Assembly (NCBI RefSeq): GCF_031769215.1
Contig: NW_026782106.1
Location: 496,001-560,000 of the forward strand
DNA length: 64,000 bases
Direction of reading: 5' to 3'
Source of the DNA: Ylistrum balloti
Taxonomy: Eukaryota
Below, piece by piece: positions 48,001 through 57,000 of the stretch (within the stretch, counting starts at the first letter, position 1; every line of letters begins with the position of its first letter). A program made the position numbers.

Positions 48001-51000
48001 CTAGATTAAACAAGAGCACTACACATGCATACATGTTACACATGTAATTATACAGAGAGCAAAGATATTGTTAAAATGTATTAACCAATGACAATGTAAT
48101 AAGGTCTGCCAGATTTCAGAAATACTTCAGGAGCTTTATATTAGCTATACCAATGACTTCAACAAAACTTTATTAGGGTTAAATCCATCTGTATAACTTG
48201 CAAAAAGGAAGTAATGCTCGCAAAAAGGAAGTAACGCTCTTTATCTTTTTTTCTGAAATTGTGCAAAATTTCAGAACCAATAAAAAAAAACAACATGTAG
48301 TCACTTTATCTTTTGGTGAAATAACTGAACATTGTAACAATCCCAATTTGAAGAATAAAAATTCCGGAAACTGACCTCATTAACAAATACTTGAACAATC
48401 GTTTCAGCTCTAATGTATTTGTAAATTGAAAATCGAATAATGCAAAATATAATAATCCTTACCTCAGTTTTTTTCTGTCCTTTTCCTTTGACTTCTGTAG
48501 CAATGCTATCTTTACTACAGTCAGTTGAAGCAGGAGTCTGAATTGAATTATTTGACGGGAAATAAAAATTTACACAGGCAAATCTGTTTTGGAACAACTC
48601 AAAAGTACATTCAAATATACACCTTCAGAAGGGCTTTAAATGGAAACAAGAATTCAGTTTTATATGTAAGTCAACATTTCAAATCTTCGTGATTATTTAC
48701 TGATAAAATAGAGAAAATTCAGTTTTAAGTTTCTATGCTTGTCATCTTCAAACATTATTCCATTTCTGAGTTAATTTTTTTCATCTTTATTTCTTTGACT
48801 TACAGAAAAAGGAGCTTGAACACTGTGAGCCACATTTGGTATCTTGGACTTTTTAAGTTTTACAGGATCTTTCTGTTTATCAGCACAATTTTTCTGTTTT
48901 GTAACTGATTTCTTTGATTTTTTCGGCTTCACTTCTTTTGATTCATCACCTTCCTGTGAAGTCAGATATTATCATACAACAAAATTCTCCAGCAAAATTA
49001 CTTCTTACATAGTCAAGATCATACAATGTTTGTTTCAGACCATCAGTGTTATTATATTGTGTATGAATTTTATAGTCCGCTGTGGCCTTTATAAATTGAG
49101 CAAATTGAGCAAATATAGTGATATTTAGAAATTTGGAAGTTATTCCTGCATTTTCCTCAGTTTTGGGAAAATACTGTATAGCCAAATATTTTAACATGAA
49201 TGATATTTTCACTATTTTGCAGTACATTCACAAGGCAATGAAAATTAAATCTGTGAAATAATGAGACATATGTATAAGACATTCTGTTACATCAACACAC
49301 TAAAACACACATTCAAAAGTATATTTGTATACATAGTGTATATAACTGATCCATGAACTTGGTCAGCTGTGCTGTGATGACCATGTCACAGGTAACATTG
49401 GTGGTGCTATGGCAGTGTTATCGGGAGCACACAAAGGGAATTACAATGGCGCATTGAAGTGTCAGGAAGGTTTATTTCATTGTTGTTTCACTTCCTATTA
49501 ACAGCAAGATTAGTTAAAGGACGTACCAGATCTGGCGAGAGGGGAAAAGGCTGTGACTGCGATACTGAGAGCTAGTAACAAAGATGGTGAGATATGTTAA
49601 GCAATCAGCCACCATGGTCATATGTCAAGAGAAATTCATTTTGAAAAAAAACTGATAGTGGTAGGCAAGGCTGGGAGTACAATGGGTGGCAGTACAACAA
49701 GGTTATAATGAACCTGAAAAATGTGTTTACCCTTGTAAAAGCATGGAATTAAAATGACTTTCTAACCTGTGTTTCTCCAGATTTCTTGGGCTTCTTCTTT
49801 TCTGATTTTACATCCTTGTCATTCTTCAAACTTTCATCTGATTCCTTGAGAATGTACAAAAAACATTATCAATCAACTTTCATTTATGTCATGACCACTG
49901 ACTGAACAGCTCACCATCTGATGACAGCAGGCTAAAAATGTGACATGTCCTTCCGTTGATATATGTAATATATACATAAGGTAAATGACTATGAATGATA
50001 AATGGAATTGGATTACTTAAGAAACTTAAACACTGAATATATACATGTACATTGCAAAGCTAATACATTAATCTTCTAGTGGATCTTTGTTCTTTTCAGA
50101 TTATTTAGATATGACTTCCTGCAATTTTGCCTTTTCAATTTCACCTTTAATATTGTAATATGCAAAAGTGAAGATAAAAAATCATTATGACTGAAAGACA
50201 AAATTAGATCACATCACAAAATCAGGTTTGAGGGGAGTGGTTCTACTCTCAATGTTCAGTGCATATGGACAAAATAAATGTAGAAATGAACTTGAGATGT
50301 ATATACAAAACAAAGAGTATGTGTAAATGCAATGAAATCTTCAGCAATGATGGAGAAATGTAGTTGGCGCTGATTATCTTTCAATACCTATAGGGGCTGG
50401 GACAACAATTTAGTAAATGATAAAACTGTATAATGTATACCATTTCTGCTGATGTCTTTTTAGGAGCTTGAAATCCAACTTTCATTTTCTTCTGTTTTAA
50501 GTTGATATTTAGACTCTTTGCTTTTTCATAGTTATTCATTGATGGTGAACCTTCTTTTTCCTCAAGGTGATGAATGGACTCCTACATAAGTCATAACAGG
50601 AAAATCAGTATTGAACATTTCACATCTTAAGTACCTGGTACAATTTATTTATTTAATATCATCATGCATTACAGAAAATTCACAATGTACATATCAAAAT
50701 TCCTATTGATACACATTTTGGAATACTTTCTCATTTATTTAACAAACGCTGTACATGAAATAAGATAGCATTACCCAAACCATTCCCCAGTTTTATTGTT
50801 ATTAACAAAAAAGTGATTTAATAACATTAAAATAGATAGGAATACCAACTTCATTATCAAGACTTTGCTGATTGCATACTGCGAGTTCTGTCGATTCTTG
50901 GCAATCCTGTGAATTATTTAGTTTGGAAATACTAGAGTTCTCTGGAGTCTCCATTCTTCTTCCTTTACAAAAAAATGTATTTATATACCATAATTACATT

Positions 51001-54000: not shown

Positions 54001-57000
54001 CTAAAAAAGGAAAATTCGTCTATGGCAACTACAATAGATATTATGGGTACAGAAATCCTGACACTGCAGATGATTACAGGCTAATGTCTTTCAGGAAAGA
54101 GTGGTTTGAGGGAAAGGATGCAATTGACATTGGATGCAATGTTGGTCATGTGACATTGGCTATAGCAAAAGAAATGCATCCTCGAAAGATTATAGGGATT
54201 GACATTGATTCTAGTCTGATTGCTGCTGCTAGGAAAAATGTGAGGCATTACATCTCAAAAGAGAATATGGGTTGTGGAAGTTTTCCAATCTCCAATACTC
54301 TGAATTATGGTCCAATTGCTGCTCCACCTGTGAATGAAGTCTACAGCTTTCCAAAATTTCCACACAATGTTGTCTTTGTACAGGTAAATATCAATGTTAA
54401 ATATAAACGTTAAAAAAGCACTAATTAAACTTGTACATGTTACAATTCTTTTTATATATTGGTATTTTCAGAAATATTAAAACCAAAGAATGTACAATGT
54501 TTTAAGAAATAGCTGTTGAAGAGCTAGAGATTGATTTTCTTCTAGGAGAAATAGATCCAATCTTTACTCTTATGAAACAGCAAAGCAGGAACTGTAACTC
54601 TGATAGTTTTCAGACTAGATCAAGAAATTGAAAATGTAACTTGCATGCTCACATAATTGGAAAAGTAGTATCATACCGTTAGTTTGAAACAGACATGTGC
54701 TCAATATATTGTCAGTTCATATATAGCACAAAATCAATGTCCGCATGTTTACAGGGTAACTATGTACTGGAGAGAGAAGAATTACTGGAACTGCAGAAAG
54801 AAGATTATGATGTCATCTTAGCTCTAAGTCTTACCAAATGGGTTCACCTTAATTTTGGTGATGATGGACTAAAGCGAATGTTTAAGAGAATTTATCGGCA
54901 GCTGCGGCCAGGGGGACGGCTGATCTTAGAGCCTCAGCCATGGTCTTCCTACAAGAAGAAGAAGAAGCTCACAGTAAATATTTTCTATTACAATGGCCAC
55001 CATTCAGAACTAATAACATAATGTGTGATTTATCAAGTCAAACCTTGGAAATAAATTTCAATGTGTATTGCCAATTATTTGAATCAGGGAAATTGAATAT
55101 ATGAAAGTTTGGAACACAAGATTTCCAAAACTGCTCACTTTAATAACTGAAACAATTTTGATCATGTCGTTGAAAAAGATCAAATAGGAGTAAATGTTTC
55201 AATTGCTTTGTTCTTTGCTCTATAGAATAATGAAAACAATTTTATGTATTTTCAGCCGGAGATTTTTGAGAACTTCAAAAGAATTTCTCTAAAGCCAGAG
55301 CAGTTCTCAGACTACCTGTTGTCTAAAGAGGTTGGATTCTCCACTTGTGAGGTTGTAGACACTCCCTTCAACAAGTCCAAAGGTATGTATAGTTTTATAA
55401 TATATTATGTACATGTTTGTTTCATCGAAATTCCCTGATAGGGTGTGAGAAGGTATGGGGATACCTGTAGATATTCCCTGGGTACTGGACAAAATTACAA
55501 TGGAAATTCCACAAGTATGTTGATGATTGAAAACATTGAAATGTCTTGTTGATATTACATTTGATGCAAAGTTTACCACATACCATAAGGGTAATACAAA
55601 TTTTCTTTTTTCTTCTCCTTTCTTTGTAGAAATTTTCAAAAATTTGACAGTTGTAAAATTCTTTAGGTGTTATACAAGTATATGAACTTGTGCTCAAATA
55701 CAGTATCAGGATACATTAATGTTGTAATTTTCAAAATATTCAGTCAAGTTTCCAAGGAATATGGTAGCAGTTTTTCCTTGGTATTTTGAAACTAGAGGTG
55801 TCTTCTACTCCACCTTCAATGTGTATATTGTATAGGAGAGTTCTTTAAAACTGATGCTAGTGATGTTGGATTTTAACAATTTGGAGGTGTGTGATAAGGG
55901 TGTGTATGTGATAATATTTTTTGGGCAAAGGTACATACACAGTAAAAGTTCTGTAAAACAAATTTTTGATCATGTTATGGCACTGCTTGGCACCTTTAGA
56001 TCAGAAGTTCTTGTTCTGCAGAGGAGAAAAGAATTGTAATTTATTAATCTCTTTTCCAGGTTTCCGCAGGACTATCCAGCTCTTCACAAAAGCAGAAACT
56101 GCAGCTAACAGCCCAAAACAAGATGAACCTGCAACTAATAATGAAACTATTAGCAGCCAGAAACAGGACTCAAAAACTGATGGGACAACCACTTGCAGCC
56201 CAAAACAGGATAACTCGGCAACTAATAATGAGACAACAACTTGCAGCCCAAAACAGGATAACTCTGCAATCGATACAGCAGTGAAGGCTTCAACAGAATC
56301 AAATCCAGATCAACCTTCTGAAGCCATGGAAACATTTGTTACACTAAATACGACAGAGGCAGAAGAGTGCAGACAGTAGAATGAATGGGTTTTAGAACTG
56401 AAGAAACTTTTGGTTATTTTGAATTGTAACATTATCAAGATGTAAATACAATACACTGATATAAATTGTGTTTGTTGGAATCTAACTGCCATCTTTAATG
56501 CTATATAAAATGGCTTACGTTAATGATCACATTGATAAGAACCAGATCTTAGGGAGGAGTAACAGGCAGAAGTGTTGCATTATTATCAGTACCACAATGT
56601 TTAATCATTTCAGCTGCAATATTAATATTCTTTTCTAACACATTAACTAGTGCAATTTCTGAAATATATTCTTAATACATGGTTAAATGGTTTTTGTCTC
56701 GCCTAGAACGCAAAGTCAAAGACTGGTGTTATTTTTCCTGCAGTGGCAACCATAGCAACATCTACATTTCTCTGTCAAGTTTTGTATGTAAACTTGTTCA
56801 ATTTTAACCAAATAGGTAGATTTACAAAATATTTTCCAGATGATTTCAGGTGAACTCAGAAAATTAAGTTTGCTTAGAAACTGTACTTGAGTGTTGTATT
56901 TAGATAAGTTTCTCTATTAAATACAATGTTTATTCCAATGGAATTTTGAATACACTTTCATTGTAGTAGAGACATCTAAAGCAACCAAATAGATTCTATG

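What the first reader, a model, noticed from the sequence alone, without database searches (positions are those of the whole stretch)
50880..54383. ZCWPW1-MEPCE head-to-head pair apparently shared between a mollusc and human
Seen: divergent ZCWPW1-like and MEPCE genes with ATGs 524 bp apart (52479 and 53004). From memory, human ZCWPW1 and MEPCE are also adjacent and divergently transcribed at 7q22.1. Inference: a bidirectional pair kept since the protostome-deuterostome ancestor, coupling a germline-biased histone reader to a housekeeping 7SK/P-TEFb regulator. It also supports true orthology of the CW-PWWP gene. The next gene here is CFAP74, so the conserved block looks limited to this pair.
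Basis: partly seen in the sequence, partly recalled or inferred. Interest (0 to 1): 0.65.

Follow-up and report, generated by a model that had tools for sequence, protein, structure and literature searches.

The report
Scallop MEPCE and CW-PWWP divergent pair
In a scallop genome the RNA-capping gene MEPCE and a ZCWPW-type histone-reader gene sit back to back around a single CpG island, the same two genes stay linked in the other molluscs that could be compared, and this matches the arrangement recalled for humans, so it is probably an old but ordinary conserved gene pair.

Summary
The window is Ylistrum balloti (scallop) DNA. Its exon 1 is 100% identical to the NCBI protein, and the protein scores 321 bits against human MEPCE versus 31.5 against BCDIN3D.

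A 1041-aa CW-PWWP gene runs divergently on the - strand. Its start codon is at 50954, not 52479. The ATG at 52479 is out of frame with every possible acceptor and is more likely the end of a non-coding first exon (ATG|GTAAGT). The two ATGs are therefore 2,050 bp apart, not 524, with a 1.1-kb MITE-like insert between them.

One CpG island (about 52250-53300) is the only one in 38 kb of CpG-depleted DNA. It lies between the genes, which fits a shared promoter; this is inferred, not shown.

In 9 of 9 other mollusc species that appear in both hit lists, the two genes lie on contigs of identical length. One of these contigs is only 282 kb, and one species has consecutive locus tags.

Orthology to ZCWPW1 rather than ZCWPW2 could not be resolved. 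The human arrangement rests on recall plus indirect passages. Non-mollusc lineages and the CFAP74 claim stayed unchecked.

Verdict: a real, probably ancient head-to-head pair, and a new member of a known kind.

The parts
53004..54383 (+). MEPCE exon 1 (aa 1-460): long disordered N-terminal part and the start of the SAM methyltransferase fold
   Evidence: 100% identity to P0001. Methyltransferase Pfam matches at aa 363-432 of the ORF. GT donor at 54384.
54752..54973 (+). MEPCE exon 2 (about aa 460-533), first half of the Bin3 domain; ends good to a few bases
   Evidence: Exact match to P0001. Bin3 PF06859, E 1.5e-28.
55256..55384 (+). MEPCE exon 3 (about aa 534-576), end of the Bin3 domain
   Evidence: Exact match to P0001. 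Bin3 26.1 bits, just under the cut-off of 27 for this exon alone.
56059..56376 (+). MEPCE last coding exon (aa 576-681)
   Evidence: tblastn 100% identity and exact match.
50880..50954 (-). First coding exon of the CW-PWWP gene (aa 1-25); the start codon is 50954-50952
   Evidence: tblastn 100% identity to P0121. In-frame stop at 50996 and donor GT after 50880.
31810..50581 (-). The other 17 coding exons of the CW-PWWP gene: 50581-50441, 49844-49767, 48956-48810, 48558-48463, 47906-47802, 46685-46455, 45842-45633, 45016-44816, 44516-44409, 43104-42988, 42325-42251, 41398-41279, 39998-39918, 38214-38140, 35680-35462, 34168-34079, 32805-31810 (ends good to a few bases)
   Evidence: tblastn of P0121 and exact matches.
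44409..44516 (-). Exon holding most of the CW zinc finger (aa 416-451; T417, W418, C421, C426, KWR 428-430, C447)
   Evidence: Pfam zf-CW E 2.7e-10 on this exon alone. Invariant columns of alignment A1.
39918..43104 (-). Four exons holding the last CW cysteine (C458) and the PWWP domain (aa 478-572; PWWP motif at 489-492, split between two exons)
   Evidence: Pfam PWWP E 1.2e-12 on P0121 at aa 478-572. Exon map. One exon alone gives only 13.9 bits.
52250..53300 (.). CpG island (observed/expected 1.14) between the two genes and over MEPCE's first 300 bp; the presumed shared promoter region
   Evidence: Of the 74 one-kb windows between 26001 and 63500, only the 3 contiguous ones over 52001-54000 exceed 0.5 (1.02, 1.00, 0.72).
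52472..52479 (-).
   Evidence: Sequence and frame arithmetic. No transcript evidence.
51106..52207 (.). MITE-like insertion with imperfect terminal inverted repeats, inside the presumed first intron
   Evidence: Inverted repeats I1 (36 nt, 78% complementary) and I2 (21 nt, 90%). The arm motif is found only at these two places in the window; 0 expected.
52368..52375 (+). TTTCCCGC, first of the two copies in the window (E2F-like consensus; the motif is recalled, not from a call)
   Evidence: 2 matches in 64 kb, both in the island; 0.32 expected; 4 of 100 shuffles reach 2.
52912..52919 (+). TTTCCCGC, second copy, 85 bp upstream of the MEPCE ATG

Best explanation
A MEPCE orthologue and a ZCWPW-family CW-PWWP histone-reader gene are divergent neighbours in the scallop Ylistrum balloti.

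Shown:
- Both identities, the orientation, and the absence of any other recognisable gene between them.
- A single 1-kb CpG island at the junction, inside 38 kb of strongly CpG-depleted DNA.
- Linkage of the same two genes in every other mollusc that could be compared, including a chiton.

Inferred:
- Both genes start transcription in that island. MEPCE starts just upstream of 53004. The CW-PWWP gene starts through a short non-coding exon ending at the donor at 52477, followed by a 1.5-kb intron that has taken up a MITE. The two genes would then share a bidirectional promoter.
- The pair is the same one as human ZCWPW1-MEPCE and comes from the bilaterian ancestor, possibly from before ZCWPW1 and ZCWPW2 separated.
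- It persists because a breakpoint inside so short a shared promoter would damage at least one gene.
For: Identities:
- Exon 1 is 100% identical to NCBI MEPCE-like of Y. balloti.
- P0001 scores 321 bits against human MEPCE structures and 31.5 against BCDIN3D. Bin3 domain E 9.8e-43.
- The CW exon is 100% identical to P0121. P0121 has zf-CW at 417-463 directly followed by PWWP at 478-572.
- Four Cys, the KWR motif and the PWWP motif are invariant in 29 relatives. These are the two motifs Wells et al. used to call ZCWPW1 orthologues (PMC7494361, passages).

Arrangement: exon maps; nothing else between the genes.

Promoter:
- CpG observed/expected is 1.14 at 52250-53300. It is 0.20 over the CW-PWWP gene body, 0.24 over 50967-52250 and 0.31 over the rest of MEPCE.
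- There is no island at the first coding exon.
- A strong donor sits at 52477.

Age:
- Locus tags are consecutive in Potamilus.

Vertebrate side:
- The vertebrate clusters I could identify among the best 150 relatives are all ZCWPW1-like: P0240 by name; P0192, P0231 and P0211 at 120.7, 90.5 and 55.7 bits to the human ZCWPW1 CW structure.
- Three mollusc orthologues are named ZCWPW1 or ZCWPW1-like by NCBI.
- Human MEPCE lies in the ZCWPW1 GWAS locus (PMC4769299, passages). One array probe is annotated to both genes (PMC7298426, passage).
Against: - The start codons are 2,050 bp apart, above the 1-kb limit usually applied (to transcription starts) for bidirectional pairs. No transcription start is known here.
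- ZCWPW1 versus ZCWPW2 is unresolved. The CW domain scores 36.4 bits to ZCWPW2 and 35.8 to ZCWPW1. A profile of 29 relatives gives 55.6 versus 51.4.
- The nearest ESM Atlas clusters are named ZCWPW2 (0.93 and 0.92).
- Neither tree has a deep branch with support of 95 or more, and neither contains a ZCWPW2 anchor.
- A preprint reports both paralogues in cnidarians, so the duplication may predate bilaterians (10.64898/2026.09.07.749791, passages).
- Six of the 10 matching contigs are whole chromosomes, which shows only same-chromosome linkage.
- In Pinctada imbricata the locus tags (FSP39_020775 and FSP39_023334) are far apart, and that gene model lacks the CW domain.
- No non-mollusc invertebrate was checked.
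- The human and mouse arrangement is recalled, not read from sequence.
Confidence: 0.65

Rival explanations
1. Neighbours with separate promoters. The CpG island belongs to MEPCE alone, and the CW-PWWP gene starts just upstream of its first coding exon (about 50966-51100), 2 kb away. The pair would be divergent but not regulated together.
For: The start codons are 2,050 bp apart. The database protein starts at 50954, and no upstream exon is visible at the protein level. The ATG at 52479 cannot open the reading frame. Germline-restricted genes often lack CpG-island promoters (general knowledge).
Against: There is no second CpG-rich stretch anywhere in 26001-64000. The DNA at 50900-51099 has 1 CpG in 200 bp. 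A near-consensus donor on the - strand lies inside the island, and the exon at 50962 is preceded by a T-run and AG. 1.1 kb of the 2 kb is a MITE-like insertion.
Confidence: 0.25
2. Not the same pair. The mollusc CW-PWWP gene is a ZCWPW2-type or separate lineage, or the adjacency arose independently in molluscs and vertebrates.
For: The Atlas nearest clusters are named ZCWPW2. The CW domain is equidistant from both human paralogues. The trees are unresolved. Both paralogues are reported in cnidarians.
Against: Humans have only two CW-PWWP genes of this kind (general knowledge). That one of them should independently land head to head with MEPCE in two phyla is very unlikely, of the order of 1 in 10,000 by my own rough estimate from about 20,000 genes. 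None of the 6 unnamed relatives tested singly had ZCWPW2 as its best CW match, and 3 of 6 had ZCWPW1.
Confidence: 0.12
3. Passive survival. The pair is ancestral, but it is kept only because mollusc and vertebrate genomes rearrange slowly, with no constraint from a shared promoter.
For: Six of the 10 mollusc matches show only same-chromosome linkage, which conserved mollusc karyotypes would give anyway. No co-expression data exist here.
Against: Tight linkage holds in the small contigs (282 kb, 1.98 Mb, 2.50 Mb with consecutive tags) across bivalve orders. A single island sits at the junction.
Confidence: 0.2

Closest known systems
Human ZCWPW1-MEPCE locus at 7q22.1 (arrangement recalled; also recalled for mouse chromosome 5)
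   Same: A CW-PWWP reader gene and MEPCE are transcribed away from each other from adjoining 5' ends. Both genes are listed in one GWAS locus (PMC4769299), and one CpG probe is annotated to both (PMC7298426).
   Different: The scallop reader protein is 1041 aa, against about 650 aa recalled for the human one. The start codons are 2 kb apart with a transposon between them. Orthology to ZCWPW1 specifically is not shown. No human sequence was compared.
Conserved head-to-head (bidirectional, divergently paired) genes as described for vertebrates and Drosophila
   Same: Opposite strands, adjoining 5' ends, a CpG-rich spacer, and conservation across species. Definitions come from the abstract starts of PMC2670823, PMC3024869 and PMC7817982 in the search listing.
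   Different: Those definitions require transcription starts less than 1 kb apart, and the starts are unknown here. No paper found names this pair.
ZCWPW1 / ZCWPW2 dual histone-mark readers (H3K4me3 by CW, H3K36me3 by PWWP) acting with PRDM9 in meiosis
   Same: The CW finger is directly followed by a PWWP domain. The KWR and PWWP motifs and four Cys are conserved. The nearest solved PWWP is the N-terminal one of NSD2 (46 bits), as PMC3457860 describes for this family.
   Different: Long extra N- and C-terminal regions with no Pfam match, including the 332-aa last exon. Which paralogue it corresponds to is unresolved. Histone binding and germline expression were not tested.
MEPCE / Bin3 7SK methylphosphate capping enzymes
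   Same: A complete Bin3 domain and SAM fold, with 321 bits to human MEPCE structures.
   Different: Nothing notable. The N-terminal 350 aa are lineage-specific, as in its other relatives.

Membership tests
ZCWPW family (CW-PWWP histone readers) | CW zinc finger with four Cys and the KWR motif | tested here: met
   Pfam zf-CW: 47.1 bits on P0121 and 40.5 bits on the window exon alone. C421, C426, C447, C458 and K428-W429-R430 are invariant in 29 relatives.
ZCWPW family (CW-PWWP histone readers) | PWWP domain directly downstream of the CW finger | tested here: met
   PWWP at 478-572, 48.6 bits, 14 residues after the CW domain ends. P489-W490-W491-P492 are invariant.
ZCWPW1 specifically (as opposed to ZCWPW2) | Groups with named ZCWPW1 and apart from named ZCWPW2 in a gene tree | tested here: inconclusive
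   No ZCWPW2 anchor could be obtained. FastTree of 146 rows and IQ-TREE of 83 rows leave the deep branches below 95. The CW domain scores are nearly equal: 35.8 versus 36.4 bits, and 55.6 versus 51.4 with a profile. The Atlas favours clusters named ZCWPW2.
ZCWPW1 specifically | Meiotic or germline expression and reading of H3K4me3 plus H3K36me3 | not testable with these tools
   No expression or binding data. In Hydractinia a gene named Zcwpw1 by reciprocal BLAST is gametogenic (10.1101/2024.07.07.602406, passages).
MEPCE / Bin3 | Bin3 domain on a SAM methyltransferase fold | tested here: met
   Bin3 145.6 bits on P0001, and 100 bits on window exon 2 alone.
MEPCE / Bin3 | Closer to MEPCE than to the paralogue BCDIN3D | tested here: met
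   321.1 bits to 5una (MEPCE) against 31.5 bits to 6l8u (BCDIN3D).
Bidirectional (head-to-head) gene pair | Opposite strands, 5' ends facing, no gene between | tested here: met
   Exon maps. No Pfam or Rfam match above cut-off between 50994 and 53003.
Bidirectional (head-to-head) gene pair | Transcription starts less than 1 kb apart | not testable with these tools
   No transcript data. The start codons are 2,050 bp apart. One 1.05-kb CpG island and a donor at 52477 suggest a short distance.
Ancient conserved microsynteny | The same pair linked in other molluscs | tested here: met
Potamilus has consecutive locus tags. This is a proxy: adjacency itself was seen only in the window.
Ancient conserved microsynteny | The same pair in deuterostomes and in intermediate phyla | not testable with these tools
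   No eukaryote genome collection was on hand. The look-up of cluster members was unavailable. The human arrangement is recalled and only indirectly supported.

The most novel reading that the evidence does not exclude
MEPCE and the ZCWPW reader form an obligate regulatory unit that has shared one bidirectional, E2F-type CpG-island promoter since before the protostome-deuterostome split. The unit would tie a meiotic double-strand-break repair reader to a 7SK/P-TEFb factor that has itself been reported to promote homologous recombination at breaks (PMC12261951; I saw only the abstract start in the listing). The linkage would then reflect a common germline DNA-repair programme rather than chance.
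Probability: 0.12. Interest if true: 0.6.

Novelty: new member of a known kind. Interest (0 to 1): 0.4.

Why it matters
If the pair really dates to the bilaterian ancestor, it gives a positional marker for telling ZCWPW1 from ZCWPW2 in invertebrates. My domain trees could not separate them, and that assignment matters for tracing the PRDM9 reader system outside vertebrates. It also adds one more very old head-to-head pair in which a broadly needed gene and a probably germline-restricted gene share a short spacer. That makes it a useful case for asking how one CpG island can serve two different expression programmes. On its own it is a modest comparative-genomics observation.

Tried and rejected
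1. Reading the ATG at 52479 as the start codon: rejected on frame and against the database protein.

2. Finding CFAP74: Pfam scans of 97 ORFs of at least 40 aa and 73 ORFs of 28-39 aa downstream of MEPCE found nothing. Pfam on 108 of the 195 ORFs of at least 48 aa below 32000 found only three C-type lectin exons. The other 87 were not sent.

3. Finding a vertebrate ZCWPW2 anchor among the 150 unnamed relatives. Six single sequences were tested against solved structures: 3 were ZCWPW1-like and 0 were ZCWPW2-like. A profile of the 48-row clade D scored MORC3 66.1, ZCWPW1 61.8 and ZCWPW2 51.1 bits, so clade D is not recognisably ZCWPW2.

Annelid, brachiopod, nemertean and shark linkage therefore could not be compared with the MEPCE contigs.

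5. A search with the 70-aa CW ORF for longer proteins found only the scallop's own record.

6. Trees: 13 of 159 sequences were dropped beforehand because they covered only part of the domain. The second tree used 83 of the 146 rows, chosen by hand.

7. Literature: seven searches found no paper that links the two genes by synteny or a shared promoter. One hit cited ZCWPW1 only in its reference list. In seabream, mepce is flanked on one side by defb2 (PMC11541337, passage), which says nothing about the other side.

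
Full report
WHAT THE WINDOW IS. The window has no N and is 34.4% G+C. Translating 53004-54383 gives 460 residues that are 100% identical to the NCBI protein '7SK snRNA methylphosphate capping enzyme-like [Ylistrum balloti]' (P0001, 681 aa). The CW-finger ORF at 44343-44552 on the - strand matches 'uncharacterized protein LOC132549360 [Ylistrum balloti]' (P0121, 1041 aa; Pfam zf-CW and PWWP) at 100% identity. Both records come from a contig of 2,266,084 bp. The window is therefore scallop DNA. 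No contig here was taken for human, and no human sequence was compared.

HOW THE EXONS WERE SEARCHED. The window's exons were searched one at a time. Where a whole protein was needed I used the two database records.

THE OBSERVATION: MEPCE. The ATG is at 53004, preceded by a stop 30 nt upstream, and exon 1 runs to the GT donor at 54384. Further exons lie at about 54752-54973, 55256-55384 and 56059-56376. Exon 2 alone gives Bin3 at E 1.5e-28. The whole protein gives Bin3 at 9.8e-43. It scores 321 bits to human MEPCE structures against 31.5 bits to BCDIN3D.

THE OBSERVATION: THE CW-PWWP GENE. This gene runs the other way in 18 coding exons from 50954 down to 31810.

The protein begins at 50954, an in-frame stop lies at 50996, and all three possible acceptors of that exon are out of frame with an exon ending in ATG at 52477. 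The start codons are therefore 2,050 bp apart, not 524 bp.

What lies at 52479-52472 is ATG|GTAAGT on the - strand, a near-consensus donor. It could close a non-coding first exon.

BETWEEN AND BEYOND THE GENES. I found no other gene between the two. None of the 5 minus-strand and 7 plus-strand ORFs of at least 40 aa in that stretch reached a Pfam cut-off, and Rfam found nothing in the window. About 1.1 kb of the spacer (51106-52207) is a MITE-like element with imperfect terminal inverted repeats. The statement that the next gene is CFAP74 could not be confirmed.

THE JUNCTION. CpG content splits the window into two parts. Positions 1-26000, a C-type lectin array, have an observed/expected ratio of 0.78. 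From 26001 to 64000 the ratio is about 0.2: 0.20 over the CW-PWWP gene body, 0.31 over MEPCE after 53300, and 0.22 downstream.

Within those 38 kb only three contiguous 1-kb windows, covering 52001-54000, exceed 0.5 (1.02, 1.00, 0.72). The island at about 52250-53300 has a ratio of 1.14. It covers the 5' end of MEPCE and the donor at 52477. The first coding exon of the CW-PWWP gene lies in depleted DNA.

In animals with mosaic methylation, such a pattern is usually read as one unmethylated promoter inside methylated gene bodies (general knowledge). I therefore infer that both genes start in this island. This is an inference; no transcript or methylation data were available.

The only two copies of TTTCCCGC in the window both lie in the island, at 52368 and 52912 (0.32 expected; 4 of 100 shuffles reach 2). 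Its reading as an E2F-type site is recalled and post hoc, and a CpG-containing word is expected to be commoner in an island.

HOW OLD THE LINKAGE IS. No eukaryote genome collection was on hand, so I used a proxy. The homologue tables give, for each protein, the length of the contig it lies on. Ten mollusc species appear both among the MEPCE relatives and the CW-PWWP relatives. In all ten the two lengths are identical to the base:

| Species | Contig length (bp) |
|---|---|
| Ylistrum balloti | 2,266,084 |
| Mizuhopecten yessoensis | 1,979,416 |
| Pecten maximus | 37,770,382 |
| Saccostrea cucullata | 282,370 |
| Mactra antiquata | 35,424,985 |
| Mercenaria mercenaria | 76,376,716 |
| Dreissena polymorpha | 127,705,040 |
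| Potamilus streckersoni | 2,495,628 |
| Liolophura sinensis (a chiton) | 37,343,639 |
| Pinctada imbricata | 53,322,705 |

In Potamilus the two locus tags are consecutive (CHS0354_012347 and CHS0354_012348).

Limits of the proxy:
- Six of the ten contigs are chromosome-sized and show only same-chromosome linkage. The four smaller contigs are the informative ones.
- In Pinctada the tags (FSP39_020775 and FSP39_023334) are far apart and the model lacks the CW domain, so adjacency may not hold there.
- Species present in only one list could not be compared. MEPCE only: Saccostrea echinata, Solemya, Mytilus edulis, Haliotis, Mya, and all the non-molluscs. CW-PWWP only: Argopecten, Ruditapes, Sinanodonta, Mytilus galloprovincialis, gar.
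- The look-up that would have named the non-mollusc relatives and given their contigs was unavailable.

IS IT ZCWPW1? Membership of the family is clear. The CW finger (417-463) is followed after 14 residues by a PWWP domain (478-572). Four Cys, KWR and PWWP are invariant in 29 relatives. The nearest solved PWWP is the N-terminal one of NSD2, as described for this family in PMC3457860 (passages).

Which paralogue it corresponds to is not settled. A full scan of 1.84 billion representatives gave 742 relatives at E up to 0.001, of which 150 were listed, all unnamed.

For ZCWPW1:
- The vertebrate clusters I could identify are ZCWPW1-like. The gar protein is so named. P0192, P0231 and P0211 score 120.7, 90.5 and 55.7 bits to the human ZCWPW1 CW structure.
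- None of the six sequences tested singly had ZCWPW2 as its best CW match.
- NCBI names three mollusc orthologues ZCWPW1 or ZCWPW1-like.

Against or neutral:
- The scallop CW domain scores the same to both human paralogues, 36.4 and 35.8 bits. A 29-sequence profile gives 55.6 versus 51.4.
- The nearest ESM Atlas clusters are named ZCWPW2, at 0.93 and 0.92.
- In a FastTree of 146 domain sequences, all 13 named molluscs fall in one 50-row group, vertebrate ZCWPW1 in a 40-row group, and the groups meet in a polytomy (13 of 159 sequences were dropped as partial).
- An IQ-TREE of 83 of those rows has no deep branch at 95 or more.
- A 48-row group that might have been ZCWPW2 scores best to MORC3 in its CW domain.
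- A 2026 preprint reports both paralogues in nearly all of 28 cnidarians (passages), so the split may predate bilaterians.

Position next to MEPCE is then itself the best argument that this is the ZCWPW1-side gene. It cannot serve at the same time as independent proof that the pair is conserved.

THE HUMAN SIDE. From papers I saw only indirect support. MEPCE is listed among the genes of the ZCWPW1 GWAS locus (PMC4769299, passages). One methylation-array probe is annotated 'MEPCE; ZCWPW1' (PMC7298426, passage).

Seven full-text searches found no paper that states a shared promoter or synteny for this pair. Supplementary tables, where lists of conserved microsyntenic pairs would be, could not be read, so 'unreported' holds only for the main texts of the held library.

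VERDICT. The pair is real and divergent, centred on one CpG island, and linked across bivalves and a chiton. Given that only two such reader genes exist in humans (general knowledge), independent assembly of the same pair in two phyla is very unlikely. Descent from a bilaterian or older pair is the best reading (confidence about 0.65). The shared promoter is a reasonable but unproven mechanism.

It is one more case of a known phenomenon, the ancient head-to-head pair, not a new kind of system. Its main practical value is as a positional marker for sorting ZCWPW paralogues in invertebrates.

Noticed in passing
window 1-26000: A tandem array of C-type lectin genes on the - strand (Lectin_C exons at 2122-2469, 13501-13962 and 23241-23762). 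It is interleaved with long tandem repeats of 21- and 39-nt periods at 11604-13171 and 21358-22569, and of 47 nt at 3691-4314, which keep several frames open.
   Followed up: partly
window about 26000: A sharp change in CpG observed/expected, from about 0.8 (lectin array) to about 0.2 (the rest of the window). It lies 5.8 kb beyond the stop codon of the CW-PWWP gene and looks like the edge of a germline-methylated domain.
   Followed up: partly
window 51106-52207: A MITE-like element of 1.1 kb with imperfect terminal inverted repeats, inserted between the first coding exon of the CW-PWWP gene and the CpG island. Its arm motif occurs nowhere else in the window.
   Followed up: partly
window 52368-52375 and 52912-52919: The only two TTTCCCGC words in 64 kb, both on the + strand and both preceded by AAT, lie inside the CpG island 544 bp apart. 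Reading them as E2F-type sites is recalled and untested.
   Followed up: partly
window 56400-64000: The region is strongly CpG-depleted, as inside a methylated gene body, yet no ORF with a family match or a coding look was found.
   Followed up: partly
proteins P0155-P0269 (the 48-row group): A large group of unnamed CW-PWWP proteins whose CW finger scores higher to MORC3 (66.1 bits) than to ZCWPW1 (61.8) or ZCWPW2 (51.1). Its taxa and its relation to ZCWPW2 are unknown.
   Followed up: partly
window 31810-32805 (- strand): The 332-aa last exon of the CW-PWWP gene has no Pfam match. Alignments of some unnamed relatives to the scallop protein extend into this region, and the relatives' consensus ends in an acidic DSDPFDL-like tail.
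   Followed up: no
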